A DNA stretch of 41,864 nucleotides from the IMG/VR virus record IMGVR_UViG_3300030333_005104, positions 1-41,864 of that record; one strand, 5' to 3'. The DNA is from a virus. Lineage: Duplodnaviria > Caudoviricetes. Position 1 is the stretch's first letter, and the number at the start of each line of letters is the position of its first letter. The translations under genes were made by a program, and so were the position numbers. The notes beneath the pieces were generated by a model, which was given only the letters and a program-made list of their open reading frames with translations, was not told where the DNA came from and searched no databases. Shown here piece by piece: positions 1,457-31,100 of this stretch.

Positions 1457-1853
1457 TGCTGGCTCCCTCCTGCTTGATTGCTGAGAGTGGGCGACCGCAG
1501 CAATGGCAGAACCGTTCGGGCATTGCGTCGTTGTCCATGTTGGCGATTCGGTCGCGCATTCTTGTCACTTTGACTTGGAGTCGCTTGTCCACTGAGGCCC
1601 AATCCCTAATGCGCCTACACCCGTTTAGCACTGAGCCGTGATCCCTGTTGGTCATCTTCCCGATGCTGCTAAGGGAATGGCCCATTTCACGCATAAGCCA
1701 GTAGGTTAGCATTCTCGCCTGAGCGATGTCGTCAGGGCGTTTCCTCCCAAGAATCTCCTCACGGGTTATTCCGGTTACGGACTCAACCAGACCGATGATC
1801 TCGTCGAAGTCCTTTCTAATGTCGCGAATAGTTGCTTCTGTTGTTGTTGTCAT
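1449..1853 (-). CDS. DnaA C-terminal (domain IV)-like HTH protein with C-terminal CxxC
   Basis: I...V....GITREEILGRKR...IAQAR....WLMRE..SLSSIG...RDHGSVL.G.RRI matches the Bac_DnaA_C signature (RDHxTV); ends with CHCCG. Confidence 0.85.
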   Translation of the reverse strand: MTTTTEATIRDIRKDFDEIIGLVESVTGITREEILGRKRPDDIAQARMLTYWLMREMGHSLSSIGKMTNRDHGSVLNGCRRIRDWASVDKRLQVKVTRMRDRIANMDNDAMPERFCHCCGRPLSAIKQEGASNG

Positions 1854-2443
1854 AATATCTTGAACTGTTTGGCTTCAGTCATGTCGATAAAGGCGTTAAG
1901 GCCAGTCATTTCACCGCCATTAACTGATGCGCTTGTTTTCGTTACTTCTTCTCGGAACCCGCAAGTCCAGTTCCCGTCCTTGTCAGATATTTGCTTGCTA
2001 AGGCAGATGCCTGAATTGGGGAGGACTAGCAGCCCCACGAACGGGCAGCGTAACCCCAAGGCAAGCTGCATCCCCCGATCCAGCTTGCTTTTAGTGATTA
2101 GCCACTCGCCGTTGTACGGCCCCATGAGCTTATCCAAGGTCATGTAGCGCGTTTTTATTTCCACCACTCCCTTGATGACGTTGCCCTTGAGAACCGAATA
2201 AAGGATGCCGTCAACATCTGCCGGTTCTTTCTGGTCAGTCTCAGCTAGGTTCAGAGAGGGGTAGGCGCGTAGGAATGCTTCTGATCCCTTACGCGCCCAT
2301 CGGATCGCATCTCGCCCTCGGGGCGTGTCAGCGTCCAAAGAGGAGGGGCCACAGCTGCGAACGTGAGAACCTGACGGAGATGGTAGGCCGTCAGGCAAGG
2401 AGGTGTCCGCATCGAGAGAGTGCTGTGGCCCCTTTGAACTCAT
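1850..2443 (-). CDS. PD-(D/E)XK-type nuclease-like protein
   Basis: PADVDGIL...VVEIKTR core. The first ~33 codons coincide with a large RNA hairpin, so the true start is uncertain. Confidence 0.7.
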   Translation of the reverse strand: MSSKGPQHSLDADTSLPDGLPSPSGSHVRSCGPSSLDADTPRGRDAIRWARKGSEAFLRAYPSLNLAETDQKEPADVDGILYSVLKGNVIKGVVEIKTRYMTLDKLMGPYNGEWLITKSKLDRGMQLALGLRCPFVGLLVLPNSGICLSKQISDKDGNWTCGFREEVTKTSASVNGGEMTGLNAFIDMTEAKQFKIL

Positions 2444-3123
2444 GGCCGAATGATCTCCTTCTTCAAGCCATTCGGGCCGTAATTAACTTTCTTGTTTGCT
2501 GGCAACTTTTCAGGAAGCCAATCTTTAAGGGCTTTGTGGAATGTAAGCCCCCAATCCAAATACTTTCTCGGCGTGTTCGTGGCCCAATCTTTGAACTCCG
2601 AAACAGCCGCGTCAAAGTCGATCCCTTCCTTCAGGCAGTACGCTCTGTGGGAATCGTTAGGAACCCAGCTAGCTGGCAACCTCCCAGCTACCCTACTCTC
2701 TTTTTCCTTATCCTTATCCTTATCCTTATCCTTATCCTTAATACTTGCCGAACCCTTTGGTAAGGGTTTGGCAAGGGTTTCTGTTTCCTTTAGGATTACG
2801 GGGAGTTTATGCTTTTCCAGCAGCTTAATCACTGAGGCGTGAGGCTTACTTGTGGTTGAGAGTTTTCCGTACTGGAACTCCACGAAGCCCCGAAGGTAAA
2901 CCTTGTTGTTGCCAAGGACTTCAACCCTATCACCAAAAGCCAAGAGATCACCCTCAGCTACCTCCTCTCCGATGCAAAAGCCCGCGAGCCGGTAGTTCGC
3001 TTCCCAAACCCCTGCATGGTCGCAGCGATCCGTCATATATTGCCAGAAGCATTTCAGGCGCGGACTGAGGTCTTGGAACCATTCCTTGTCCCACTTCTCA
3101 GTGCTTGTAAACCGCTTGGCCAT
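2440..3123 (-). CDS. Phage replication initiator (replisome organiser)
   Basis: N-terminal MAKRFT..EKW...WF..L...K.FW.Y..D.CDHAGVW winged-helix-like domain, KDKDKDKDKDKE linker, C-terminal helical domain (F..W...DW..TF...L); lies in the DnaB operon. Confidence 0.8.
   Translation of the reverse strand: MAKRFTSTEKWDKEWFQDLSPRLKCFWQYMTDRCDHAGVWEANYRLAGFCIGEEVAEGDLLAFGDRVEVLGNNKVYLRGFVEFQYGKLSTTSKPHASVIKLLEKHKLPVILKETETLAKPLPKGSASIKDKDKDKDKDKEKESRVAGRLPASWVPNDSHRAYCLKEGIDFDAAVSEFKDWATNTPRKYLDWGLTFHKALKDWLPEKLPANKKVNYGPNGLKKEIIRP
2706..2779. repeat. Putative origin: six CCTTA(T) hexamer units plus AACCCTT/AAGGGTT iterons inside the initiator gene
   Basis: CCTTAT units x6 at 2706-2740; palindrome AACCCTT-tggt-AAGGGTT at 2751-2768 and a further AAGGGTT at 2773-2779. 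Lambdoid-type origins lie inside the initiator gene. Confidence 0.7.
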
Positions 3124-4199
3124 TACGAAGCCCTCCTGATCCGAGGCTCCTGATGCTTCTCAGTCATTGCGCCCGAGAGAACTTCACTCATCCTGCGCTT
3201 GGCTTCCGTCGGCCCCATGCCAGTATGCTCCACGATTTCTCGCTGAAGCTTAGTCACCGACACTGAGCAGCTAGCTAGGAACCTCTCCGCACTGATCATC
3301 GACTCATCTTCCAACTCCTTGAAGGCCGATTCGGCACTGGAAATTGTTCTGGTCGGTGCAGGGGAAGATAGCTCCCAGCCTTCTATGGCATTAGGATTTT
3401 CTCGTAATAAATCTTTTGCGTGTGACTTAATAGCCTTGCACTTGGCCTCGATGGCGGGTATCGCGACCAGCAGCTCGGACAACTGGGAAGTAGAAAGCTC
3501 CGCTGCGTCACTGACCCTGCTGATTGCCTCCTGCTTTTTGTTTAACTCTGGGCAAAACCCCTTAGCCTTGCAGTATTTGCACTGCTTTTCGCCAGCGGAT
3601 AGGCTCGGATTCTCGGCCTCCATCTTGCGAAGCGTGTCAGTCACCCTCCTGCGAGCCTTCTTTATGCCCTTCAGGTCGTAGGTGAAAACCGTTGGGGTGC
3701 TACATCTGGGCTGAATCAGGGCCACCGTGATGTATTCCAAGTCATATTCGCAGTCCAATAGGGCCACATTCCACCTCATTTGGCCGTTTACACGGGCATG
3801 AGACACGGGCACTCTGCCGCATTTATAGTCCACAATTAGGGCTTTTTTGCCGTTAATTGCTACAAAATCAGCCTTTCCTGAGTAGCGATTGCCGCGATAC
3901 CACAGCCTTTCCTCCTTGATGATGATGGAAGGGGGGTTATCCCTCCACTCAGGAAATACAAAATCCATTACATCACATCGCTGCGACTCCATCTCCTTGG
4001 CTAAGGCCAGCTCGTCCCCTGATAGCTCGATGGCTTGGTCGTCCTCCAGCCATAAATGTATCCGGTTCCCCTCCTCAGCAGCTGCACTGCTAGTGTCCTT
4101 CAGCCCGCTTTCCATTTGGTGCTTACCGTGGCAAGCCTCATAGTCCTCGCCCTTGCTGGCGGATGGCTTACCCCCTCTCTCGTCCTTCAATTCTTTCAC
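3123..4199 (-). CDS. DUF2800 / Cas4-like PD-(D/E)XK exonuclease
   Basis: AAEEG..IH..LE, EERL, GKADF, IVDYKCG, NGQM, IQPR and GEKQCKYCKAK..CP motifs; adjacent to the SSB gene as usual for this family. Confidence 0.85.
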   Translation of the reverse strand: MKELKDERGGKPSASKGEDYEACHGKHQMESGLKDTSSAAAEEGNRIHLWLEDDQAIELSGDELALAKEMESQRCDVMDFVFPEWRDNPPSIIIKEERLWYRGNRYSGKADFVAINGKKALIVDYKCGRVPVSHARVNGQMRWNVALLDCEYDLEYITVALIQPRCSTPTVFTYDLKGIKKARRRVTDTLRKMEAENPSLSAGEKQCKYCKAKGFCPELNKKQEAISRVSDAAELSTSQLSELLVAIPAIEAKCKAIKSHAKDLLRENPNAIEGWELSSPAPTRTISSAESAFKELEDESMISAERFLASCSVSVTKLQREIVEHTGMGPTEAKRRMSEVLSGAMTEKHQEPRIRRAS

Positions 4200-4440: not shown

Positions 4441-4929
4441 TTAGAACGCAACATCGTCCTCAGCGACTGCTTGTGCTAATGCAGGCTGAACATAGCCTCC
4501 ATCCTGCTTTTCAAACATATCAGCCGCCCCGCGATATTCTTTGAGTTCAACTATTTGGATTCCCTGAAGGCCGCACCCAACGCCCTTCTTGTTCTTGAAC
4601 GTCCAGTCATACGGACGAACGATTACGTTGGCAATCGTGCCATTGCCGATCCTAGCCAACTCCTCGCCCTCGATGGACTTCTTCATCGAATCAACCACCA
4701 TCACAGGGTTCTGCGCGGAGGGGGCGATGTAGTTGCCAACCTCAAGGTTAGGCTCTTTCTTGTCCTTGCCGTTCTTGACAGTTATGCCAGCGGCCTTCAG
4801 CTCCTTGACTTGTGCATCGGTCAACTTGATTACGTTGACGGTGTACTTATTGCTCAAGTCGGAGGGTTCATGGAGTTTAGCCCATTGAAGCTCAACTCCG
4901 TCCAGTCTTATGTTTTTATGTTCAGACAT
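4441..4929 (-). CDS. Single-stranded DNA-binding protein, T7 gp2.5/DUF2815-like
   Basis: WAKL.EP....KY, P..VD, IGNGT..NV, KGVG.GLQGIQI..L.EY and an acidic tail ending DDVAF. Confidence 0.88.
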   Translation of the reverse strand: MSEHKNIRLDGVELQWAKLHEPSDLSNKYTVNVIKLTDAQVKELKAAGITVKNGKDKKEPNLEVGNYIAPSAQNPVMVVDSMKKSIEGEELARIGNGTIANVIVRPYDWTFKNKKGVGCGLQGIQIVELKEYRGAADMFEKQDGGYVQPALAQAVAEDDVAF

Positions 4930-4961
4930 GTTTTTGGTTTCTGTTTTTTTGGTTAACCTCC

Positions 4962-5309
4962 CTACACGGGAGAAATTTTCGTTAGGCGCACAATGGCCCC
5001 CTCGTCACCCTTTTCCACCCTCCTTACTTTCACCGTTATCTGCGGTATCTGCTGCCAGTTGTCGTCCGACGGCCACGATGCAATCGCAGATTGTTGCCAA
5101 GGCTCCGTCGAGGTCGCGCCTTCGCCGGTCTGATACAAGGATTTCAACTTCGAGTACATATCCTTCGTAGCCAGCTCCATCCATTGCCGTGCTTTTGGGG
5201 CGGTTACTAGCCTTTTCCCAGCGATTATTTTTTTGTTTTTGAACGCTGGAACGTGTCCGATCCCATGGATGAGGATGACCGTTGAGTCTGAAGTATTCAT
5301 CTGCTTCAT
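4962..5309 (-). CDS. RusA-like resolvase, frame A (N-terminal P..KN motif and C-terminal DD/beta strands)
   Basis: GHVPAFKN...KARQW at the N-terminus and SDDNWQQI...V.KGDEGAIVRL at the C-terminus; lacks the central DxD motif. Confidence 0.65.
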   Translation of the reverse strand: MKQMNTSDSTVILIHGIGHVPAFKNKKIIAGKRLVTAPKARQWMELATKDMYSKLKSLYQTGEGATSTEPWQQSAIASWPSDDNWQQIPQITVKVRRVEKGDEGAIVRLTKISPV

Positions 5310-5331
5310 GCTGCGTCAGCTTGTGCGTCAT
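5005..5331 (-). CDS. RusA-like resolvase, overlapping frame B (central catalytic motif)
   Basis: VLEVEILVSDRRRRDLDGALATICDCIV matches the RusA DRRRRDLDN...D segment; 108 codons open with its own ATG. Confidence 0.6.
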   Translation of the reverse strand: MTHKLTQHEADEYFRLNGHPHPWDRTRSSVQKQKNNRWEKASNRPKSTAMDGAGYEGYVLEVEILVSDRRRRDLDGALATICDCIVAVGRQLAADTADNGESKEGGKG

Positions 5332-7108: not shown

Positions 7109-8305
7109 ATGGCTAATTCATTTGACGCGATGAAAGTCGCGACCGAGAGCCTAAGCTCTCAAGTGCATCGCCAAGCCACTGCACAATCTTTGTGGCTGTC
7201 TGCGATTCCTCGCGGATCGTACAACAAAAACACTGGACTAACTCAAACCACTTTCACTGTGGAGAACAGTCAGCCCGTGGATGACACCGAAAGCTGGTCA
7301 GCTATCGCCCTGTCAACCGGCAGTAGCGATAACTTTGGCGCATGTGCCAACTCGTACACAGACGTAGAGGTGGGCTTCACGGAGACTACCTACAGCCCAC
7401 AGCAGTTCCAACTGCGCGGGCCGGTGGTTTGCTCGACCGACCTGATGTTTGATCACAACCCTCAAGTGTTCCTTTCCGCCTATGTGCAGGAAATGGTGAA
7501 ACGCTCGAAGAAGTCGTGGGAAAACAAGCTCATCCAAGAGTATTTGAAGCAGGCCGAGAAGGTGACTGTGGGTGCTAGCGGTGCAATCACCGTTGACTCC
7601 ACTCGCGCCGATTTGGCTACTGTCTCCACTCTGTCCAACTCCACCACCGCCTTGGATCAAGATCACCTTGATGCGCTGGCCGTGCGTCTGATTGAGAACG
7701 GAGCAACCGAGGGCGACTCCAACGGGTTTATTAACCTTGAGGATAATGGCCCCGTGTTCCCGTTGATCATCGGCATGGAGGCTAGCCAAAAGCTGGCCAA
7801 GGACAACTCTAGCCTTCGCGCTGACCTTCGCTACGGCGAACCTCATCAGCTCCTGAAGGCTATGGGTGCTAGCCGTGTGCTGAACAACTTCCGCCACGTT
7901 CCCACCGTGAACCCGTTGCGCTTCAACTACGATGCGTCGGCTAACAGTGGTTCGGGTGGTTTCGTTCAGGTGAACCAATACACCGAGGGAAGTGCCACTA
8001 AAGGCAAGAAGTACACGATCAACTCCGCATGGCGCACAGCCACGCATGAGGCTGCTATCGTGCTGAACCCGAACGTGTTGACCACCGAGATTGTTACCCC
8101 TGCTGGTTACGGTCTGGACTTCGACCCCGAAAATTACGGCGGCGAATGGAGCTGGATCACTGGCGGTGATCGCATCGGTGCAACCACGGTAGGAAGTGAT
8201 CCTCAGGAAACTCTGGGGCGTCACTTCGCCAAGTACATGGCCGCGTTCCGTCCGGTTCGTCCGCAAGACGGCGCAGTCATTCTCTTCGACCGCGACGGTG
8301 CTTAA
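7109..8305 (+). CDS. Major capsid protein
   Basis: 398 aa, strong codon bias, A-rich leader, followed by a strong terminator; no other capsid candidate in the window. Call is from size and context. Confidence 0.8.
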   Translation: MANSFDAMKVATESLSSQVHRQATAQSLWLSAIPRGSYNKNTGLTQTTFTVENSQPVDDTESWSAIALSTGSSDNFGACANSYTDVEVGFTETTYSPQQFQLRGPVVCSTDLMFDHNPQVFLSAYVQEMVKRSKKSWENKLIQEYLKQAEKVTVGASGAITVDSTRADLATVSTLSNSTTALDQDHLDALAVRLIENGATEGDSNGFINLEDNGPVFPLIIGMEASQKLAKDNSSLRADLRYGEPHQLLKAMGASRVLNNFRHVPTVNPLRFNYDASANSGSGGFVQVNQYTEGSATKGKKYTINSAWRTATHEAAIVLNPNVLTTEIVTPAGYGLDFDPENYGGEWSWITGGDRIGATTVGSDPQETLGRHFAKYMAAFRPVRPQDGAVILFDRDGA

Positions 8306-8329
8306 ACCGTAGTCGTTGTTGTCTGACAC

Positions 8330-9090: not shown

Positions 9091-9522
9091 ATGGGGGCAT
9101 CCTCTCATAACAAGATACATGGTGCTGCCGCAGAAATGCTGGTGGCGCATGACTTAATGAGGCTAGGCTACGGCGTGGCCCTGCCGCTTTCTGATTCTGA
9201 GCCTTACGACCTTATTGCTATACGGGGCGGAAAGCTGTGGCTTCTCCAAGTGAAGGCAACAACGCAGCCTTATTGCGGGAACTACCGAGTCTTATTCTCC
9301 CACGGTAGGAAGTCAAAGACTCGGTACACAAAAAAAGACTGCGACTTCATCATCGCAGTCATTTATTACCCCACAGGAACTGGAGTCTACGTCATCCCTA
9401 TCGACAAGGTTAAGACAGGGAAGGGCATATTCTGGGAGGTTGGGAAGCACGCCCGCTATCCCGATAAGTGGCCGCGCTGCAAGTACGAGGACTACCGGAA
9501 CGGCTGGAATCAGCTAGCCTAG
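9091..9522 (+). CDS. PD-(D/E)XK endonuclease (I-Ssp6803I/PDDEXK_5-like)
   Basis: G..AE......L...GY.V..P......YDL.......L.QVK...Y....CDF signature. Confidence 0.85.
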   Translation: MGASSHNKIHGAAAEMLVAHDLMRLGYGVALPLSDSEPYDLIAIRGGKLWLLQVKATTQPYCGNYRVLFSHGRKSKTRYTKKDCDFIIAVIYYPTGTGVYVIPIDKVKTGKGIFWEVGKHARYPDKWPRCKYEDYRNGWNQLA

Positions 9523-20778: not shown

Positions 20779-22638
20779 ATGTCAATCGTAGACAGAGGAA
20801 GGCTGGTTGATGGCGTCACTGAGCTAAGCGGCGGAATGGACAGTGGCCGCTCTCCCAGCATGATTGCGTCAAATCAGGTGCAATATGCTGGCAATGTGTC
20901 TTTTCGTGGCGGGTTCGCAAAGACTCGTCCAGCCTACAAGCGCATTAACGTAACCGGATTCTCCACTCCTGCTGCTGCTAAGTTCCAAGGCTGCGGGTAC
21001 TTCGACTACTCAGACGGGCAAATCATATTCGTAGCGGGCGGGAACACATACAAGATAGAGCCGCCAGCTAGCGGCACTGATTGGGCCTGCACTGACATTA
21101 CTAACAGTAAGACGCTTTCAGCCACTCGCGACCGCGTGCATATGGTTCAGGTCGAGAATAAGATTGGCAGCGGCAGCGCGACCAGTCACATGGTCATTCA
21201 GGACGGGTCTACATCCCCATACATTTGGGACGGCAGCTCAGCTAGCTACGCAAGCGATGCCACCAACTCTGTTCCGATAGGCACTGGCCCAATGGCGTTC
21301 GGCCACGGTCGTCTTTGGGTAGCCAAGGGGCGAAGCTACATAGCCTCTGACATATATGGCGGCAGCAATGGAACTTTGCAGTTCACAGAAAACACTTACC
21401 TAGCTGGTGGTGGTGCTTTCTCTGTGCCGGTGTCAGCGGGAAACATCACGGCCATGAGGTTTGCCGCTGCTCCGAACACTGCGTTAGGGCAAGGGGAGCT
21501 GATTGTGGCTACCGATGACGCCGTGTTCACGGTGAGCGTGCCGCTAGACAGGACTAGCTGGTCAGCCCTTACCGACCCTGTGCAGCGAGTCGCGTTAATC
21601 AATAACGGCTCGATGTCGCACTTTAGCACCGAACTGGTCAATGGAGATGTGTTCATGCGTAGTCGTGACGGGATTCGCAGTGTGATTCAGGCTGTGCGGG
21701 ACTTTACGCAGCTAGGAAATACTCCTATCAGCTCCGAGATGTACCGCGTTTTTAAGTATGATGATGCTAGCTATTTGAAGTACAGCTCTGGTGTTTTGTT
21801 TGATAACCGATACCTGCTAACCAGCCAAAGCAGCTACGATGCCACTAAAGGGGTGGCGTTTACGGGCCTAGTCAGCTTGGACTTTAACCAGATCAGCAGC
21901 ATGAAGGGGAAAGCCCCTCCTGCATACGACGGCTTCTGGACAAGTGAAGTGACTCGCTCCAGTGTTAAGTATGATCTTCAAGTCTACCAGCTAGTTAAGG
22001 GCAGGTTCAACGGGGTGGAGCGTTGCTTCGCGTTTATTCGGCCTAAGTACCTGTCAGGTTCCACGGTCACATACGGTGATACCGAGTTGTGGGAGATTAT
22101 GCGGGACGACAGCTTGGTCGTTGACGATGTGGACATCGTTAGCAGCGAGAGCGTTGGTAATGAAATAACCTCCGAGATTGAGACTCCCAGCTTCGACTTC
22201 AACCAGATGGGAGCCGCTAAAGTCCTTGAGTCTGCTGACCTTTGGGCTGATAACCTTACGGGCGGAACGGTCAGCTTTAGTGCTGATTTCCACCCTGACC
22301 AGTATCCGTGCTGGGTTAACTGGCAGTCATGGTCAGTTATCTCAGAGTCGTCTAGCGATAATTGTAATGATTTGGTAGAGTACCAGCGGCAGTACAGGGC
22401 GAGGATGCGGTTAGGCACTCCGTCATCGGCTGAGGAACCCGCAGTTGGTAAGCCATTTAACTACGGGTGGGAATTTGCAGCTCGCCTGAAATGGACGGGC
22501 AGAGCGAGGGTTAAGCTGTTTAGGCTTAATTGTCGCGAAACACAAGAGGAACCATATGCAGACGTTAACATCGACGGCGGGAGTAAGGCTATAGCCTGCG
22601 ACTGCCTGAGCGGCGTCAGCTCAGCAACTAATCAATAA
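20779..22638 (+). CDS. Putative tail tubular / stabilisation protein (nozzle-like)
   Basis: 619 aa, beta-rich; GGM.S...P..I......AGNV..RGG...TRP start and GRLWVA; size and position fit a podovirus tail hub. Confidence 0.65.
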   Translation: MSIVDRGRLVDGVTELSGGMDSGRSPSMIASNQVQYAGNVSFRGGFAKTRPAYKRINVTGFSTPAAAKFQGCGYFDYSDGQIIFVAGGNTYKIEPPASGTDWACTDITNSKTLSATRDRVHMVQVENKIGSGSATSHMVIQDGSTSPYIWDGSSASYASDATNSVPIGTGPMAFGHGRLWVAKGRSYIASDIYGGSNGTLQFTENTYLAGGGAFSVPVSAGNITAMRFAAAPNTALGQGELIVATDDAVFTVSVPLDRTSWSALTDPVQRVALINNGSMSHFSTELVNGDVFMRSRDGIRSVIQAVRDFTQLGNTPISSEMYRVFKYDDASYLKYSSGVLFDNRYLLTSQSSYDATKGVAFTGLVSLDFNQISSMKGKAPPAYDGFWTSEVTRSSVKYDLQVYQLVKGRFNGVERCFAFIRPKYLSGSTVTYGDTELWEIMRDDSLVVDDVDIVSSESVGNEITSEIETPSFDFNQMGAAKVLESADLWADNLTGGTVSFSADFHPDQYPCWVNWQSWSVISESSSDNCNDLVEYQRQYRARMRLGTPSSAEEPAVGKPFNYGWEFAARLKWTGRARVKLFRLNCRETQEEPYADVNIDGGSKAIACDCLSGVSSATNQ

Positions 22639-22639
22639 C

Positions 22640-23542
22640 ATGGGAAACTGTAGCAACATCTCAAACTTACAAACTGTATCGTTATCGTCTGGCACGATAA
22701 CCGGCGGCTTCTGCCACACCAGCTTGCAAACAACCTACGAAGAGTTTATTGCCCGCACGACCGCAACCTTGAGTGGGAACGTAGCTGGCTTTACTGCGGG
22801 GGACGAAACGCCCGATGCCGGTGATCAAGACAAGTTATGGTTTAAGCAAAATGCCAGTGACTGCAATGATGCCTTAGGGTGGTATTATTACAACACCACT
22901 AGCACTTCTTGGGTTCCGCTCAAAACCCCAGTATCAAGCCTAGCTGACAACACTCAGGGCGACATTATTTATTATGGAGCTTCAGGTGCGCCAGCGACGT
23001 TAAGTGCAGGCACTGATGGCTACTATCTTAAAACAAGGGGTGCAGGCCAAAACCCTGAATGGAGCGAGGTTTCCGTTACGCCGTCAATCAAGGCTATCCG
23101 ATCAGAGATTGCTGGATCGGACACTTACTACGGAACCGCTGATATTAATGACGGAGCCGCTAACTTGGCTACTGGGACAGCAATCAGCCTAGATGCGAGC
23201 AGTTCATACTACCTAGAATGGGCCGTGAATGTGGCTGAAGATGCTGACCCCACAAACGTGGTGGACTCGATGGATGGTGAAGTTCAAATATCCACGGACG
23301 GAGCTTCTTACACAAAAATGTTCGACGTTAAACTTTACGAACGCCGCCAAGGCAGCGCAGGAATGGCCCAACACCGAACCTGCCATGTCGGTTTCTGTCA
23401 CAAGTTGATAACAAACTCAACTGGCGGTAGCTACTACTTTAGGTTCGAGACTAATGACGGAACTCTGTGGCACGTTCACGACTTCACCTTGAAGGTGATG
23501 GAGGGCGTGGATTACGCGGGGCAGACTTACACTCAGTCATAA
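22640..23542 (+). CDS. Putative tail-associated structural protein
   Basis: QGDIIYY......L.AGTDG..L...G....P.W fibre-type linker; within the tail operon. Confidence 0.65.
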   Translation: MGNCSNISNLQTVSLSSGTITGGFCHTSLQTTYEEFIARTTATLSGNVAGFTAGDETPDAGDQDKLWFKQNASDCNDALGWYYYNTTSTSWVPLKTPVSSLADNTQGDIIYYGASGAPATLSAGTDGYYLKTRGAGQNPEWSEVSVTPSIKAIRSEIAGSDTYYGTADINDGAANLATGTAISLDASSSYYLEWAVNVAEDADPTNVVDSMDGEVQISTDGASYTKMFDVKLYERRQGSAGMAQHRTCHVGFCHKLITNSTGGSYYFRFETNDGTLWHVHDFTLKVMEGVDYAGQTYTQS

Positions 23543-24513
23543 TGAAAATAACACTTGGCGACATTAAAACAAATGTAGCACGAATGCTCAGCATGAGCGG
23601 CACAGACGCCCGTGTAGTTGATTACATCAACGAAGCGCAGGAGCGGCTTCTCTACAAGGGCAAGTGGGTTGGCACTTATGCACGCTACGCAATAAACTCT
23701 TCCAACGGCACAATTACATGGCCGCGAGAGTTGGAGACTATTGAGTCAGTAGCTGTCGCTGATGATCCAGCTATCGTTCGCAATGAGTGGTTTGAGTTTC
23801 TTGAGACGGGATACGGAATACAGGACAGCCAAGACTCCGACGCTAAAACGCTCATTGATCGCGGTGAAGCGTGTGTCTTTAGCGACATAGCTGGAACCGA
23901 CAAGAAGCTTCGGCTGTACACGGGACACACAAGTGATGCTGGCAAGAGAGTGCTGCTTCAGGGCTACGACCAGAACGGTGAGTGGGTTCGCTCGCAAGAC
24001 GGGACTACTTGGGTAGACGGCGAGTATGTTACGCTTACCACCACGTTTGTTGACACTAACTCGCTGTTCGCTGAGCTGGTTGCTGTCCAGAAAGATGACA
24101 CTGCGACCAACGTAAAGGTGTATGAGCTGAAGCCTAGCGACAGCACTACGAGGCTGATCGCTGAGTATCAACCCAATGAATCCCGTCCAGTCTATCGGCG
24201 CAGCTTGATAGCTGGCCTAAAGGACAGTGGCGAGGATCGCGTTGTTACGATTGTCGGCAAGCTAAGGTTCGTCCCAGCTAAGGACGACACTGACTGGTTA
24301 ATGATTTCAAATGAGCCAGCACTGAAGGAGATGGTGCTGTCTATCCGCAAGGCGGAAAACAATCTACCGCAGGAGGCTATTATCTATGAGCGTCGAGCTG
24401 TTAGCTTGCTTCAGGATCAGTTACTGCACTACATAGGTGACGGGGCGGTGGGAGTACCACGGTTCCAGAATGTAGCAACCTTCGGCGGTGGCGGAGTTAG
24501 CAATTTACAATAG
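23542..24513 (+). CDS. Putative head-tail adaptor / tail tubular protein A-like
   Basis: Start MKITLGDIK at 23542 (TAATG coupling); helical N-terminus with YINEAQERL. Confidence 0.65.
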   Translation: MKITLGDIKTNVARMLSMSGTDARVVDYINEAQERLLYKGKWVGTYARYAINSSNGTITWPRELETIESVAVADDPAIVRNEWFEFLETGYGIQDSQDSDAKTLIDRGEACVFSDIAGTDKKLRLYTGHTSDAGKRVLLQGYDQNGEWVRSQDGTTWVDGEYVTLTTTFVDTNSLFAELVAVQKDDTATNVKVYELKPSDSTTRLIAEYQPNESRPVYRRSLIAGLKDSGEDRVVTIVGKLRFVPAKDDTDWLMISNEPALKEMVLSIRKAENNLPQEAIIYERRAVSLLQDQLLHYIGDGAVGVPRFQNVATFGGGGVSNLQ

Positions 24514-24521
24514 GATAAGAT

Positions 24522-25436
24522 ATGGGATTTTTCTCTTCACTATTCGGCAAGAAAGTTAAGCTTCCTGCGTTTGAGCCTGTCGATTTCGACAAGGAGTATG
24601 ACGCAGCGTTCGCCTACAACAAAAAGAAACTCCCCGAGTTTGCTGATCTAGCTAAGTCGATTCAGTCAATGGATCAGGAGACGTTGATGCAGGGCATTCG
24701 CTCCGTCATGCCTGATTACGACGCCTCGGTTAAAGCCCAAGCTGACATACAGGAGTCGCTTTTGAGGGGAGAAATGACCGAGCAGGAGAAGCGGGATGCG
24801 TGGGACACCCGTGCTGAAATAGGTCTTGCTCAGGGGCTTCAGGATTCCGACAGGGTAAAGCATGACTACGCCCGCGACCTTGGCATTACGAGGCGTCAGA
24901 ATATAATGACGGGATTAAACCTCCTGCAAAGTCGCCTTTCCCAAAGCAGGCAACTAACAGTGGACGGCCCAAGGGTCGTGTCCTTTTTTCAGGACGCAAG
25001 ATCGCGCATTGAGCAGAAGATGCAGGAAAGAAACGCCAAGCTAGCTAGGGATTCACAGCAGGCTAGGTACGACGCGCAGGGCAATCCTATCACGCAGGGC
25101 ATCGTTGGCGGCATATTGTCCGCCGCTGGTGGTGGTGCTTTTGATAACTTTTCTAGCATGACGGGAGGGCAACGATTTGGAACCATCCTCGGCTCTACGC
25201 TTGGGTTCGGCGGCGCACAGCTAGGTGGGCAGCTAGGTGGATTCTTGGGCGGGGCAGGCGCGGCGACAGGCGGGCTTCCGTTCGGCGCGTCAGGGATGGC
25301 TTCTCAGCCAGTATATGCGCCGTGGGGCATAAGCCAGCCTCAAGGGTATGGATGGAACATGGGGCAATCCTACCAAAATAACCCTGCTTGGCTCGTCGCT
25401 CCACAAGATCAAGCGATTCCCCAGCTCCCACTTTAA
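24522..25436 (+). CDS. Putative internal virion (ejection) protein 1
   Basis: MGFFSSLFG start and Gly-rich hydrophobic C-terminus; first of three genes of increasing size. Confidence 0.65.
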   Translation: MGFFSSLFGKKVKLPAFEPVDFDKEYDAAFAYNKKKLPEFADLAKSIQSMDQETLMQGIRSVMPDYDASVKAQADIQESLLRGEMTEQEKRDAWDTRAEIGLAQGLQDSDRVKHDYARDLGITRRQNIMTGLNLLQSRLSQSRQLTVDGPRVVSFFQDARSRIEQKMQERNAKLARDSQQARYDAQGNPITQGIVGGILSAAGGGAFDNFSSMTGGQRFGTILGSTLGFGGAQLGGQLGGFLGGAGAATGGLPFGASGMASQPVYAPWGISQPQGYGWNMGQSYQNNPAWLVAPQDQAIPQLPL

Positions 25437-25459
25437 ACAACTTTAACAAATAAATTATT

Positions 25460-28090
25460 ATGGCTAACCCGTACAGATTTGATTCAACAGCAGCATACCA
25501 GCAGGGGGTGAACCTTGCTGAGCAGCGTCTGCGAATGAAAGATAGGCGTCAGCAAATGAGGCAATCTCGGGAGCTGCACCCTTGGCGAGTTAAGGACGCG
25601 CAAAGCGTTATCGAGAGCAGGGATGCTAGCACCAACCTAGCGAAGCAGAGTTTTAGGTTCAACGAGCGCACGGAGGATGACCGCGCATCATTGGTTAAGT
25701 CTAGCGCACGCCAGCAAGAGACAAAGGCTACATTAGGCGAGAGGACTCTTGAGGATGAAATTAAGAAAAATAGAGCCGTGGCCAGCAAGCTTGAAACAGA
25801 AGCAAGCATCGCTAAGAAAACTGAAGAAGCAACTGTAGATATGAAGAGAATCGCGGCTTGGAATGCTGCCCGTGACCGCGATGTTAGGGAGGGGGTTGGT
25901 GTAGACCTTGAAAGAAACGCACAGTCCGCTCGGCTAAACAGGATCATCACAGATCAGACGATCAACGAGCGCACGCGGGAATATCAAATTGAACGTTATA
26001 AGCATGATACTAGGCTAGCTGATCTTAATTCTCAGATTCAACAACTCAAGTTAGAGCTCTCTCAAGCTACGCAGGAGGAGCAGAAAGCCGCTATCGCGGC
26101 GCAGCTTAAAGCTGCCCGTACCCGAGCGGAGGAAGTGGTGGCCGCAGCAGATAGAGATAAGAAAGGCAGGCCAGTGCTTCAGGCGTCTATGAGTGAGATG
26201 GCGGCGTTCGCTAGGGAAGGTAATTGGGACGCGATTGACTCGATGGTTATCCCTGAGGGGCTGACAGCGAGTCAGAAAGCTGAGTGGGCTAAGGCCAAGT
26301 CGCACTACAAAAACAACAAGAACGGACAGTTGTACGAAGTTGGGCAAGCCGCAGGGATGGAACATGCTAGCAGTGTTTATGTGAAGGCGCAACGCCACCA
26401 ACCTTGGCTTCAAGAGCTTGGGCTTATGAATGAAAGGGGTGAAATCCCTAAAAGTAAAATCCATACTGTTGGGCGGCTTATAGATAACCGCGAGAGGCAG
26501 AAGAAGATGCTGGAGGGGCTACCAATAGAGGCCCAAGACAAACTGTTAATGGAGGCATCACGAACCACTGACCCACTATCCCTGTTTGCAGACGACGATG
26601 AGGGGGTTGGCCCGATGTATGCCCCTCAGGGATCATTAGCTGGCAAGAATGCTTCAATGTACGGCAAGAAATATGGCGACGAATTTGTTCTGAATGAGCG
26701 CGGCCTCGAACGCCTCGCTCCGCTTGTTAGCAAGCTGAGAGCGGAGGCAGCATTCGCGGACGACTTGAGTAAACAGCAAGCGCAGGTAAGCCATCTTCAA
26801 GCGTGGGGATTGAGCGTAAGCAAAGCTGCCATTGAGGACGGCAAGATAACTTTAGATTTTGACTCAAAAAAGATGTCCCCAGAGCAAAGGGCGACTCAGA
26901 CTAACGCGCTTTACAAGACCCTTCAGGACGCGGCTCTGGAAGCGTCGGGCGGTGAGCCGCTTTCAGCAGCGCAACGGGCGCAGCTAATGGGCGAAGCGAG
27001 GCGTCATGTGTACGCCGCAGATTTACAAGTTGCTACCACTGCTGCGGAATTGCGGGGTATGCCCCCAGCCATGCCTGTGTGGAACCCGTTGGCGCGAAAT
27101 GCGGACGGCTCAGTTGGCGGCGTCCGCACCCCCGTGACTATCAATCAAAGCGGGCTTGATTTCCAAGGTCGGCCAGCAGGTGGCGGCAGTCCTACTGGGC
27201 AGGCTCCGTTGGGAGGCACTGGCACAGAGGTCGTTCAGAGTTTGCAGGCGAATGACCCGAGCCAGCTGGTGGATCAAAGCCAAAGCAGCAGTACCAAGGG
27301 TATGAACATGGCGCAGCATAAAGTTGGGAAGTTAATTTTCGGAGAGGGTTTTCATCTTGGCCTATCTGAATATGGTGATGGCGCAGAGGAGCAATACCCT
27401 CTTAATGGCACTGGCGTTGCTAAGCTTATTGAGAACGGTGACTCCGATATAGTTGCAAACGCCGAGCAGATATTTAAGGGGCTTTCAGAACATGTTTCTC
27501 ATCCAAATGTGGCTAGGCGCATGTTGGTAAGGTTGATTAACACCCAAGCTGGTGACGGCTTTGGGACGTTCACCGATGATCCTGATTTTAGTGATAGCGA
27601 TTTCTATGAGAACGCGGTGGAAAAGATTAGAAAGGAGAACCGAGATTACTTGCTTGAGGAGCAAGCGGAGTTCTATGCCGAGGCGGCGGGCGAACAAGCC
27701 GAGCCGAATTTGGGTGATCATGTAAACGGCAATAGGCTTGATATACCGTGGCGTCAGCTAAGAGCCTTAAAGGACAAGCCGCAATCCGAGTGGCCTTCGC
27801 ATATTACTTTTACCTTCACTAAAGCCTACGGCACTGGGCGGCAAAAGAAATCGGCGTGGCGGGTGGAAGTGGATCAGAGGTTCATTAAAACAGTCAGATC
27901 GCGTGGCGAACATTTGTTCGCCCGCGAGCAAATGGACATTGAAAATAATGAGGCACTATTGAGCATTAAGTCGCCAGTTGGGAAAGTTCCTCGTGAAAAC
28001 GAGGACTTACTGGAGAAGAAGCGGCGTGAAGCGATGGAGCGCGACAAAAAAGCGATGGAGCGCGACAAAAAAGCGCAACCTAAAAAATAA
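25460..28090 (+). CDS. Putative internal virion (ejection) protein 2
   Basis: 876 aa, helical/coiled-coil N-terminal half; a 21-bp tandem duplication near 28029-28075 encodes AMERDKK twice. Confidence 0.65.
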   Translation: MANPYRFDSTAAYQQGVNLAEQRLRMKDRRQQMRQSRELHPWRVKDAQSVIESRDASTNLAKQSFRFNERTEDDRASLVKSSARQQETKATLGERTLEDEIKKNRAVASKLETEASIAKKTEEATVDMKRIAAWNAARDRDVREGVGVDLERNAQSARLNRIITDQTINERTREYQIERYKHDTRLADLNSQIQQLKLELSQATQEEQKAAIAAQLKAARTRAEEVVAAADRDKKGRPVLQASMSEMAAFAREGNWDAIDSMVIPEGLTASQKAEWAKAKSHYKNNKNGQLYEVGQAAGMEHASSVYVKAQRHQPWLQELGLMNERGEIPKSKIHTVGRLIDNRERQKKMLEGLPIEAQDKLLMEASRTTDPLSLFADDDEGVGPMYAPQGSLAGKNASMYGKKYGDEFVLNERGLERLAPLVSKLRAEAAFADDLSKQQAQVSHLQAWGLSVSKAAIEDGKITLDFDSKKMSPEQRATQTNALYKTLQDAALEASGGEPLSAAQRAQLMGEARRHVYAADLQVATTAAELRGMPPAMPVWNPLARNADGSVGGVRTPVTINQSGLDFQGRPAGGGSPTGQAPLGGTGTEVVQSLQANDPSQLVDQSQSSSTKGMNMAQHKVGKLIFGEGFHLGLSEYGDGAEEQYPLNGTGVAKLIENGDSDIVANAEQIFKGLSEHVSHPNVARRMLVRLINTQAGDGFGTFTDDPDFSDSDFYENAVEKIRKENRDYLLEEQAEFYAEAAGEQAEPNLGDHVNGNRLDIPWRQLRALKDKPQSEWPSHITFTFTKAYGTGRQKKSAWRVEVDQRFIKTVRSRGEHLFAREQMDIENNEALLSIKSPVGKVPRENEDLLEKKRREAMERDKKAMERDKKAQPKK

Positions 28091-28111: not shown

Positions 28112-31100
28112 ATGGCGGACGACCCAATTAAAGACTACTTGGCTGATCATGGGATGCGCGAACACATGCCCGACTACGAGAAGTTCACTGGCCCAACCAC
28201 TATTGAAGAGTATTGGGCCTCGCAGGGGCTTGTGTCGGAGGAGTTCAAGGGCTTAGCTGCTCCGCCTACTGCGGAGCTGCAAGAAAAGCCGAAGGAAGAA
28301 GATACCGAAGAGTCTGGGTGGTTTTATGGGCTGGGGCAAATGCGTGGCCCGCAGGCTTACGGCAGTCTAGTGAGGGGGATCATAGACCCCTTCTCAGCTA
28401 TACCAAAGCAGATAGGAATCCTCGCGTCAGACTTGATTGACACTGACCCAAGGGAGGGGTGGGGCTACTCTATCGGTGGTGGTATGGATTGGGTAGGTGG
28501 CGCACTCGCCCCTGATGTCAACCCTGATTTTCAAGGCGAGTTTCTAGCTGACCACGCCCCACGGGCCATTGGTAACATGTTCGGAATCGTTTTCGGAACC
28601 CGAGGCATCGGCGGCGTGGCGTTGGCGTCGAAGATTGCATCAAGGGCTGGAAGCCGAGGCGTAACTGTTGGCGGGGTTAATGTTCTCAAGGGTGCTGCTG
28701 GAACCTCTAAGGCAGCTAAGGCTAGCGTGGCGGCAAAGGCGGCTGCGCTGGGGGCTAAGCGTGGCGTACCATTAAGCCCCACCGCGATCAAGGCGGCGGG
28801 CCGTAAGGCGGCAAGAAGAGACGTTGCCGCAATGAGTAAGCGTTACCAGACAGGCACTTATGCGGTGGTTGGCGGGGAGTTAGGGGCAGCTCAGGCTATG
28901 GTTGGGGGCTGGGAGGACGCTATGTACACCCTCGAAGCCAGAGCGCAATCCGAGGGGCGCGAGCTTACTGACGAAGAGAAGTCGATGGCCTTCCGTTCCT
29001 ATATGTGGAACAGCCTCATAGGTCTGTCCGAGGTAGCTCCGGTGTTTAAGCTTCTGAAGCATTTGGACGGAGTGGTTCCGAGGGGTAAGTCCAGAATGTT
29101 TGAGGCTTTAAAGACTGGTGGCTACGAGGCAGCGCAGGAATTTTCGCAGTCAATGTACGGAAACTATGTAGCCTCCCACTTGGTTGGCTACGACAAGGGG
29201 CGGAAGCTACTTGAAGGGGCGTACACTGCGGCTGGTGCGGGAGGCGTTGCTGGTGCTGTCATGGGCCTGCTTACCTTTACTCTTGGCAGGCGCGTCAAGA
29301 TGCACCGAGACATAGAAAAGCTTGAGGCAGACGCTGCTGAGTTCAGGAAAAAGGGGATGCCCAAGAACGCCGCGATGCTTGAGGAGAAAGCTAATAGGCT
29401 TCGCGCACTTATAGAGAGTTACGACAGGGATTCTGGCGCGGCGGAGATTCGTTCCCGCGAAGAGGCGACCACGACGGAGACAGCTCCAGCGGCTGAGTCT
29501 GCTGGGATACTCGACCCTAGCAGGCGATTCGAGCAAGACCTAACAGACGTTGCTGACCCAGCCGCTGACCCAGCCGTCACCCCTGTTGACCCCGCTATTG
29601 CTCCTGCCGTTGATCCCGTTGTTGCCCCTGTTGATCCACTCGCTGACCCCGAGGCCGCTCCTGCTGATACTGTTGTTGCCCCCGTTGATCCTGTTGTTGC
29701 CCCCGTTGATCCTGTTGTTGCCCCTGTTGATCCTGAGGCTGAGGTTGTGGCGACTCCCGAGGCTGAGGCTGAGCTTAGTGCAGGGTGGGCTGAGGCGGAA
29801 AGCCAGCTGCAAAAGGGGACTGACAAGGAACTCTTCACTGAAGCCCAAGAGGCTGACGTTGACCCGTCAAAGATAAGGCGGACTAAGCACGGCAAGATCA
29901 CAAACAAGGCGTTACGCGATGCTATAGCTGACAGGCGCACTGAGCGCGGGCGTGCGCTTCTCGGTGCTGAAGCGGCGGATAAAGATTTTAGCCTCCCATA
30001 CGAGGGCGCGACTCCTCAGGATGTGGAGACGGAGCTAGCTGAGGGGGGCGCACTTAGCGTGCTGCAAGAGCCAGAGGCGAGGCCCGTCGAGGATGTTGAT
30101 AAAGGGGAAGCGGAACATGCCCTGCTGGAAGAGTACAGCCCGATGGATGTCGAGGCGGGGGAGCTGGCTGCGGATAGCCCGTCCCTTAATCTCCCATATG
30201 AGGGCGCGACCACTCAGGATGTGGAGACGGAGCTAGCTGAGGGGGGTCAGCGAGACTTAACGGAACCTGCTGGGCCAGACGTTGAGGTTGAAGGCCCAGA
30301 GGGGCGCAACTTTACTCTGGTCAGCCAGCCAAGCGGCGAGGTTAGCGTCGAGGTTGACTCTCAGCCTGTGCTGGACGGCAAGCAAATGCCGCGTGAGGAG
30401 GCCGAGGCGAGAATTGAGAGCGGCGAGTTCAATGTTCTTCACGATGCCGTCAAGGAGGAGGGCGGTGAAGATTTCGTGCCAGCAGAGGCTCAGGAGCAGG
30501 AGCCGTCGCAAGAGCAAGAGCAACAACAGCAAGAGCAAGAGCAGCCAGCTGCCGAGGAGCAATCACAGGAGGAGCAATCACAGGAGCCTGACGCAGACGC
30601 AGAGCGCAGGGAGAGGGTTAATGCCGAGCAGCGAGTGCTAATGCCTGACGGCAATTTGGTTTTAGTTATCGAGAAGGGTGTTGATCCTGAGTCTCCTGCT
30701 GTAGTTGCTGCCATCGAGAAAGCATACGGTGCTTATCTAGCTGGGGCAAGGAGCCTTGGGTTTAGGGGGAATGAGTCTGATCCTATTGAGCTTAGGTTTA
30801 AGCAGGGGCATACAGTAGGAGGCCCGATGTATGCCGACCCACTCAATAACATTAACGCTATTTTCGTGGGTGTTGACAACATTGCTAATGCTCCCGAGGG
30901 GATGTTCGACCTTAACGGCGTAGCCTCTGAGGAAATATGGCATGTAGTTGAGGCTCAGGCGTTGATGGATGACTTCCTCACGAACAACCCAGACGCCACG
31001 GTAGGAGATTTTAAGGCGTATTTCACACAGCACTACGTTGACATCTACAACGACATGACTGAGGCGGAAGTTAATGAGGCTATTAGCACTTATTACACGA

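What the first reader, a model, noticed from the sequence alone, without database searches (positions are those of the whole stretch)
4962..5331. RusA resolvase motifs are partitioned between two overlapping open reading frames
Seen: frame A (4962-5309) has the RusA-like N-terminus (GHVPAFKN...KARQW) and C-terminus (SDDNWQQI...EGAIVRL, DD at 5061-5066). Its middle (GEGATSTEPW) is the out-of-frame reading of DRRRRDLD, which sits in frame B (5005-5331; motif at 5107-5130). Both frames have an ATG and stay open across 305 shared nt. Known: E. coli RusA has DRRRRDLDN..K...D...G...DD on one chain, with catalytic D70, D72, D91 and K76. Neither ORF alone has the full set, and the N73/K76 positions are G/A. 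Inference: two overlapping genes encode complementary parts of a split resolvase, or the enzyme is made by programmed recoding (an A-run lies at 5228-5240), or a frameshifted descendant is under dual-coding selection. A simple double frameshift would leave both linkers too short, which favours a two-polypeptide model.
Basis: partly seen in the sequence, partly recalled or inferred. Interest (0 to 1): 0.88.

Follow-up and report, generated by a model that had tools for sequence, protein, structure and literature searches.

The report
Resolvase interleaved across two reading frames
One 370-base stretch of this marine phage is kept readable in two overlapping frames, one giving the beginning and end and the other the middle of a RusA-type DNA-junction-cutting enzyme, so the enzyme is likely assembled from two separately made proteins.

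Summary
Confirmed, on the minus strand, and not an assembly error. ORF A (115 aa) and ORF B (108 aa) share 305 nt between DnaB and SSB genes. Across 63 related loci, selection switches frame: A at both ends, B in the middle (DRRRRDLD helix), both over about 7 codons. Each frame also stays stop-free where it has no amino-acid constraint (B: 3 stops against about 119 expected), the opposite of a frameshift signature; no slippery site is conserved. A's model best matches E. coli RusA (Z 5.1); the A+B prediction gives weak support (0.53, controls 0.00). The family is large (422 clusters). Three relatives carry the C-terminal part on B, so the tail likely swapped frames. The best reading is a two-chain RusA-like nuclease; expression and activity are untested, and K76 and N73 are missing. 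The layout has one precedent I found in print, methyltransferase M.EcoHK31I; I found no such RusA. The scan noted split RusA on three other genomes; its index returned no sequence look-alike of this A.

The parts
4962..5309 (-). ORF A, 115 aa: first and last parts of a RusA-like fold, joined by an unconstrained linker; its ATG overlaps the DnaB stop
5005..5331 (-). ORF B, 108 aa, frame -1 to A: leader, unconstrained linker, RusA-like strand, Arg loop and helix, unconstrained tail; its ATG lies inside the last codons of DnaB
5136..5285 (-). A residues 9-58: first strand, P-[AS]-F-K-N-x-K motif, hairpin and long helix; selected in frame A
   Evidence: K24 100%, N25 98%, K27 94%, T36, P38, M44; pN/pS 0.23 for A9-44; model
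5139..5159 (-). Truly dual-selected bases: A51-57 (helix end, S-Q-L) read at the same time as B58-64 (strand)
   Evidence: B third positions fixed at A51 and A55; pN/pS A 0.55, B 0.65 over A45-58
5065..5160 (-). B residues 58-89: strand, S-D-R-R-R-R-D-L-D-G loop (D73 and D75 = RusA D70 and D72) and helix (D83 = D80)
   Evidence: pN/pS 0.18; 1Q8R, E 0.0013; E 5.7e-8
5076..5135 (-). A residues 59-78: linker read out of frame across B's catalytic loop; variable, never stopped, low model confidence
   Evidence: pN/pS 0.86; pLDDT 64-66 for residues 61-80
4974..5075 (-). A residues 79-112: P-x-D-D (D82, D83 = RusA D90, D91) and the two last strands; selected in frame A
   Evidence: pN/pS 0.27-0.29; matches the B C-termini of L079, L130, L165
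5272..5331 (-). B leader (residues 1-20), of the M-x-W-T-x-x-E type seen in many relatives; lost in a few
5182..5184 (-). In-frame internal ATG of B (M50), a possible second start just before the conserved core
   Evidence: partly forced by A's W43-M44 codons
5306..6628 (-). DnaB-like helicase, upstream neighbour; likely couples translation of A and B
   Evidence: PF03796, E 1.8e-84; synteny
4441..4929 (-). Gp2.5/Enc34-like single-strand binding or annealing protein, downstream neighbour
3123..4199 (-). DUF2800 / PD-(D/E)XK exonuclease of the same module

Best explanation
Two overlapping genes in different frames are likely each translated in full, and their products are predicted to assemble into one RusA-type fold that would cut branched DNA during phage replication and recombination. 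Shown: A is conserved as protein at residues 9-58 and 79-112, B at residues 58-89, and both frames are kept open across each other's core. Inferred: A supplies the first strand, the long helix, the D90/D91 pair and the last two strands, and loops its 20-residue linker out; B inserts the missing strand, the arginine loop with D70/D72 and the second helix. Each metal site would draw acids from both chains, in an A2B2 equivalent of the RusA dimer. A's invariant K24 may stand in for the missing K76 (untested). Ribosomes ending DnaB would restart at either ATG, 22 nt apart (inferred). The layout likely came from a simpler split form (A = front only) through an 8-nt loss that moved the C-terminal part from frame B to frame A.
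For: Frame-switching selection in 63 loci (pN/pS A/B = 0.23/1.29, 0.55/0.65, 0.86/0.18, 0.29/1.06, 0.27/1.77 along the gene; 49 pairs from 28 loci). B stops under A9-43: 3 seen, 119 expected, 61 of 63 stop-free against 8 expected; the third frame has 176 against 152; B under A's C-terminus has 77 against 109. Ordinary contiguous RusA genes are stop-free in the matching frames in only 3 of 40 and 11 of 40. B has its own upstream start in 60 of 64 loci. A scan by the B motif alone gave 43 relevant loci of 48, all with A in the +1 frame and none contiguous. 118 of 150 distant A proteins carry the out-of-frame shadow of R-D-x-D-G; the shuffled mean is 0.8. B profile to 1Q8R E 0.0013. A model (pLDDT 83) has 1Q8R as the only Z>=5 match among 48161 chains: Z 5.1, rmsd 3.5, 82 aligned, next 3.7. 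Complex: score 0.53, best control 0.00, runs agree in at least 89% of contacts, partner pLDDT at least 67, A's pLDDT 63-65 against 39-42 with unrelated partners (weak support: 116 of 157 solved and 2 of 215 mismatched pairs reach the mark, and a RusA-like pair may pass by likeness to the solved structure). Tail-swap relatives L079, L130, L165. Precedent M.EcoHK31I.
Against: No expression, interaction or activity data. K76, reported critical in E. coli RusA, and N73 are replaced in all B sequences. Neither ORF hits Pfam RusA. The structural match is below the tool's own note of Z 7-8 for typical chance best hits, and Foldseek gives only E 1.1. L017 has two stops in B's upstream part, and L003 and L009 lack an upstream start, so they need internal starts. 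The loci share ancestry, so stop counts are not independent trials. Why the simpler split form also keeps A's tail open (28 of 31) is unexplained.
Confidence: 0.78

Rival explanations
1. A and B do assemble, but the complex is not a Holliday-junction resolvase: it is a catalytically weak or dead junction binder, or a nuclease of other specificity.
For: N73 is G in 100% and K76 is S/A/T. The genome has other PD-(D/E)XK nuclease genes that could resolve junctions (9091-9522, PF11645).
Against: R69, D70, D80 and D91 equivalents are invariant, D72 92% and D90 97%. A has an invariant K24 next to the stretch that corresponds to RusA's DNA-contacting residues 13-16 (correspondence inferred). The close clade keeps the helicase-SSB-exonuclease setting.
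Confidence: 0.12
2. One chain is made by two programmed shifts (A to B, then B to A), or by a backward ribosome hop, and the two full ORFs are by-products.
For: The segments lie in RusA order. L017 has B closed upstream. 17 of 64 loci, the window included, have a -1 slippery-type heptamer.
Against: Those heptamers lie at scattered places and 47 of 64 loci lack one. Helix end and strand use the same bases, so a forward shift would drop one of them. The second linker would be 3-4 residues short. Both unused stretches are kept stop-free, which a shift model does not need.
Confidence: 0.07
3. Only A is functional, as a new protein born from a doubly frameshifted RusA, and B is a relic; or the locus is a pseudogene or an assembly error.
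For: Gene callers record A more often than B (79 against 32 hits). One record is a natural A-to-B fusion (P0246) and L077 has several frame changes.
Against: B's core has pN/pS 0.18 with free third positions. The arrangement spans 422 clusters at 50% identity. No indels in independent contigs.
Confidence: 0.03

Closest known systems
RusA Holliday-junction resolvase (E. coli; PDB 1Q8R, 2H8C, 2H8E; Pfam PF05866)
   Same: Arg loop with D70/D72, D80, the D90/D91 pair, order of elements, best structural match of A, phage recombination setting.
   Different: Two ORFs instead of one chain; acids divided between them; N73 and K76 replaced; an invariant K in the N-terminal motif; no Pfam hit.
M.EcoHK31I heterodimeric C5 methyltransferase (passages of PMC2836561)
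   Same: One enzyme domain interleaved over two frames of the same DNA: the large chain has motifs I-VIII and X, the alternative-frame chain supplies internal motif IX. The chains must associate; the small chain's N-terminal 42 residues can go and internal Met starts are suspected to serve.
   Different: Unrelated fold. There the catalytic domain is on one chain and beta is wholly nested. Here the catalytic acids are on both chains, B starts 22 nt upstream of A, about 7 codons are selected in both frames, and the arrangement spans hundreds of clusters.
Simpler split RusA-like genes (front part in the +1 frame, rest in frame B): L079, L130, L165 and 49 loci of a T-P-S-L-N subfamily; probably what earlier scan notes describe
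   Same: Same frame relation, same overlap of helix end (S-x-L) with the strand, similar B leaders, both frames kept open.
   Different: One hand-over instead of two; all catalytic acids on B; the T-P-S-L-N subfamily keeps N73 and K76 and has contiguous members (25 of 74).
Programmed -1 ribosomal frameshifting in phages (recalled: tail chaperone genes)
   Same: Two same-strand frames offset by -1.
   Different: No conserved slippery site; the post-shift frame is open upstream with its own start and the pre-shift frame is open downstream.

Membership tests
RusA (PF05866) | Profile match above the curated cut-off | tested here: not met
   No Pfam family for A or B, none in the genome; relative L079 B scores 21.2 against 22.8 bits
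RusA (PF05866) | Catalytic acids D70, D72, D90/D91 | tested here: met
   Present but on two ORFs: B D73 100%, D75 92%; A D82 97%, D83 100% of 63
RusA (PF05866) | Catalytic K76 and N73 | tested here: not met
   G at 73 in 100%, S/A at 76 in 84%; substitution by A's K24 untested
RusA (PF05866) | Arginine-rich loop 65-69 with R69 | tested here: met
   B D68 97%, R70 97%, R72 100%
RusA (PF05866) | Four-stranded sheet with two helices | tested here: inconclusive
   A alone: 1Q8R ranks first, Z 5.1, rmsd 3.5, 82 aligned, Foldseek E 1.1; complex gave weak support and no contacts
RusA (PF05866) | Single chain acting as a homodimer | tested here: not met
   No frame holds all elements; 0 of 43 B-motif loci contiguous
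RusA (PF05866) | Mg-dependent cleavage of Holliday junctions | not testable with these tools
   needs bench work
M.EcoHK31I-type two-frame enzyme | Second chain encoded in an alternative frame over the first gene | tested here: met
   305 of B's 327 nt lie in A; open and selected
M.EcoHK31I-type two-frame enzyme | Second chain supplies an internal conserved motif that the first lacks | tested here: met
   B matches RusA 57-87; no A protein has that motif in frame (0 of 150)
M.EcoHK31I-type two-frame enzyme | Both chains are made and both are needed for activity | not testable with these tools
   only selection and a weak complex prediction
Programmed -1 frameshift gene | Conserved slippery site at the hand-over | tested here: not met
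   17 of 64 loci have a heptamer, at scattered positions; stimulatory RNA structures were not tested
Programmed -1 frameshift gene | New frame closed upstream and old frame closed downstream of the shift | tested here: not met
   both stay open

The most novel reading that the evidence does not exclude
A widespread phage nuclease whose active site is built from two proteins written on the same DNA in different frames, with its catalytic lysine moved to the other chain; the split arose in two RusA lineages and, in this one, the C-terminal part later changed frames, so structural elements can be traded between overlapping genes without loss of function.
Probability: 0.55. Interest if true: 0.9.

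Novelty: new variant of a known kind. Interest (0 to 1): 0.8.

Why it matters
If right, one small enzyme domain is divided in sequence order A-B-A between two overlapping genes and kept so across hundreds of phage lineages. The one comparable case I found in print is a single methyltransferase. It gives a natural series (contiguous, split once, split twice) for testing how overlapping genes arise and how frameshifts are rescued by complementation rather than recoding. It also shows a blind spot: gene callers keep one frame, neither half matches Pfam, and 422 clusters sit unannotated. The claim can be tested with two small proteins and a standard junction assay.

Tried and rejected
Assembly error: no indels. 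A-run as shift site: it codes K-N-x-K; longest A/T runs vary from 3 to 7 across loci. Antisense genes: stop-free in at most 3 of 63 loci. Pfam and PHROGs gave nothing for A (4 of 148 members touch a RusA-like PHROG at E>=0.037) and E 0.17 for B. The first A model from 78 close sequences was poor (pLDDT 66) and gave no Foldseek hit. A's profile finds no RusA by sequence in the PDB; profile comparison of A's C-terminus to contiguous RusA is marginal (E 0.015-0.02) and its N-terminus did not align. ESM Atlas: no usable hit. No A relative among 50,697 GenBank phage records (one query). In 401 genomes of one phylum only the known locus matched clearly, plus two weak hits I did not inspect. Searches with L079 B found only itself. 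No RNA holder listed. One origin of the split for both lineages is neither shown nor rejected (p-AU 0.23; 108 columns, 92 of 146 rows). Literature searches for a split or overlapping RusA found none; the library lacks most subscription papers and I read no supplements.

Full report
Observation. The feature lies on the minus strand. ORF A runs 5309->4962 (115 aa) and ORF B 5331->5005 (108 aa), one base upstream in phase; they share 305 nt. The window is a 41.9-kb virus record, 87% complete, with a terminase and tail fibres. The pair sits between a DnaB-like helicase and an SSB and DUF2800 exonuclease, an order kept in the close relatives. No intact RusA was found in the record. Contigs of four runs show no indel; X3 spans 4831-5296 without a gap (X1 may be the source). 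The best holders are marine metagenomes.

Family. A has 79 close relatives among 80 candidates. A profile finds 422 clusters at 50% identity, 309 at E<=1e-10. B has 32 called relatives. I fetched DNA through A and, independently, through the B motif alone. Of the 48 loci of that scan 5 looked like chance; the other 43 (26 already held, 17 new) all had an A-type ORF in the +1 frame and none was contiguous. After removing near-copies there were 71 loci: 62 of the window's type, 3 with the C-terminus on B, and 6 unclassified (3 cut by contig ends, 1 mis-anchored, L074 added by hand, L073 broken). L077, with several frame changes, never entered. For proteins without DNA, 118 of 150 carry the out-of-frame shadow of R-D-x-D-G at the right distance from DD (shuffled mean 0.8, maximum 4), and none has the RusA motif in frame.

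Selection. In 63 loci the variable codon position changes with the region. pN/pS for frames A and B over 49 close pairs from 28 loci: A9-44, 0.23 and 1.29; A45-58, 0.55 and 0.65; A59-78, 0.86 and 0.18; A79-83, 0.29 and 1.06; A84-112, 0.27 and 1.77; the third frame 0.84-2.08. At A51 and A55 the third base of B's codon is fixed although B's residue would allow change, so these bases are selected in both frames: A's helix end and B's strand use the same DNA. Under A9-43, where B has no amino-acid constraint, B has 3 stops against 119 expected; the controls show no such loss (third frame 176 against 152; B under A's C-terminus 77 against 109). A has no stop under B's core against 70-121 expected. 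That count is partly circular, because the type was defined by an open A; but among all 71 only L073 has a stop there, and it is of the other type. Contiguous RusA genes are stop-free in the matching frames in 3 of 40 and 11 of 40. Shared ancestry means these are not independent trials. B has an upstream start in 60 of 64 loci; one of the other four is cut by its contig end, and L003, L009 and L017 have an in-frame ATG before the core. L017 has two real stops in B's upstream part, the best single point for a shift model.

Identity of the pieces. The B profile hits E. coli RusA (1Q8R, E 0.0013) and contiguous RusA (E 5.7e-8). A has no sequence-level family hit. Its model from 148 sequences has pLDDT 83, is confident except in the linker, and leaves residues 91-100 confident but without strand pairing, as expected if a neighbouring strand is missing (that reading is mine). 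1Q8R is the top match in both structure searches (Z 5.1, rmsd 3.5, 82 residues, 7-113 onto 1-118, next 3.7; Foldseek E 1.1), modest scores. The link for A's C-terminus comes through relatives: L079, L130 and L165 carry A's front part in frame A and A's C-terminal part at the end of B (profile E 3.7e-14 to 1.8e-7 among 40 sequences), and L079's B matches Pfam RusA positions 58-124 (E 4.7e-4, under the cut-off) and aligns to 1Q8R with the normal 20-residue D70-D90 spacing. The A+B prediction gave weak support: 0.53 against 0.00 for the best control, contacts agreeing in at least 89%, partner pLDDT at least 67; 116 of 157 solved and 2 of 215 mismatched pairs reach the mark, both mismatches at 0.60 or under, and likeness to solved RusA may drive the pass. 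No contacts were returned. The strand and helix assignments are my inference from these alignments.

Mechanism. Shown: two open, selected frames with complementary RusA-like parts. Inferred: two chains; A as a clamp lacking one strand and one helix, B as the insert; acids from both chains forming the metal site (E. coli uses D70, D72 and D90/D91, with K76 and R69; passages of PMC1636454); restart after DnaB at either ATG. A double frameshift is disfavoured by the shared bases, by a D70-to-DD distance of 49-52 nt against 60, by the open unused stretches and by the lack of a conserved slippery site (17 of 64, scattered). Against plain resolvase activity: N73 is always G and K76 is S/A/T. A's K24 is invariant and could replace it; I could not test that.

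History. A scan with a motif of another RusA subfamily (recalled motif; 80 of at least 120 matches fetched) gave 74 distinct loci: 49 split with the front part in the +1 frame, 17 contiguous by rule and 8 more by eye. Front motif to D70 is 52-58 codons in contiguous genes and 37-45 in split ones. Both frames are again kept open. In trees of concatenated segments (108 columns) the window's lineage and this subfamily form separate supported groups (100/94 and 100/99), but one origin of the split is not rejected (p-AU 0.23). L079 branches first in the window's lineage in both trees. The window's type was one clade in the quick tree, broken by L130/L165 in the careful tree, and the tree holding it together scored 5.8 log units higher (p-AU 0.73). 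A tail swap from the simpler form is therefore likely but not proven.

Comparison and novelty. It works like RusA but is not filed as a regular member: the profile cut-off, K76/N73 and the single chain fail. The layout matches M.EcoHK31I, whose beta chain, carrying motif IX, is encoded in another frame inside the alpha gene, and whose chains work when expressed apart (passages of PMC2836561; I did not see the original 1995 paper; one passage of bioRxiv 10.1101/2020.03.09.983320 names it and M.AquI). A review of viral overlaps notes 11 pairs whose products interact, as whole proteins by its examples (passages of PMC8227390). PMC12707154 had nothing relevant in the passages shown. Searches for a split or overlapping RusA found no such paper (listings only); subscription papers and supplements were not seen. 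Three earlier scan notes describe split RusA on other genomes; I had reached this reading before opening them, and look-ups by sequence with A and with P0088 returned nothing.

Verdict. A real, conserved dual-coding locus; most likely a two-chain RusA-like nuclease interleaved over two frames (0.78). New variant of a known kind. Interest 0.8.

Noticed in passing
   Followed up: yes
split loci among L171-L250; L079, L130, L165: In the simpler split form frame A stays open to about the end of B although its tail shows little conservation of its own (28 of 31 stop-free, against 3 of 40 contiguous genes). The tail is Ser-rich. Unexplained; it would pre-adapt the tail swap.
   Followed up: partly
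L075, L149 against L173, L215: B leaders of the L-x-x-x-G-Y-x-x-x-x-D-G-S type occur in both split lineages, although these fall apart in the tree; the leader may have a function of its own.
   Followed up: no
window 5306-5331: DnaB's last codons overlap B's start, and its stop overlaps A's ATG; neither start shows a Shine-Dalgarno motif by eye.
   Followed up: partly
L073:1292-1828: Simpler split type whose A stops in the middle and whose C-terminal part looks partly deleted; broken copy or assembly fault.
   Followed up: partly
L077:2001-2318: Several frame changes within the gene; probably broken or mis-assembled; left out of the counts.
   Followed up: no
window 9091-9522 (+) and 1850-2443 (-): A PD-(D/E)XK endonuclease (PF11645) and a 197-aa ORF that looks like another by eye, with no family hit; possible further nucleases.
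   Followed up: no
window 28112-36703 (+): A 2863-aa ORF with no PHROG match; most structural-region ORFs from 20779 to 28090 also have none.
   Followed up: no
window 7109-8305 (+) and 7313-8329 (-): A 398-aa ORF without a family hit, capsid-like by position, has a 338-aa antisense ORF over it.
   Followed up: no
L082: The only genome hit is a 4.3-kb contig in a Verrucomicrobiota bin; a weak hint at the host group.
   Followed up: partly
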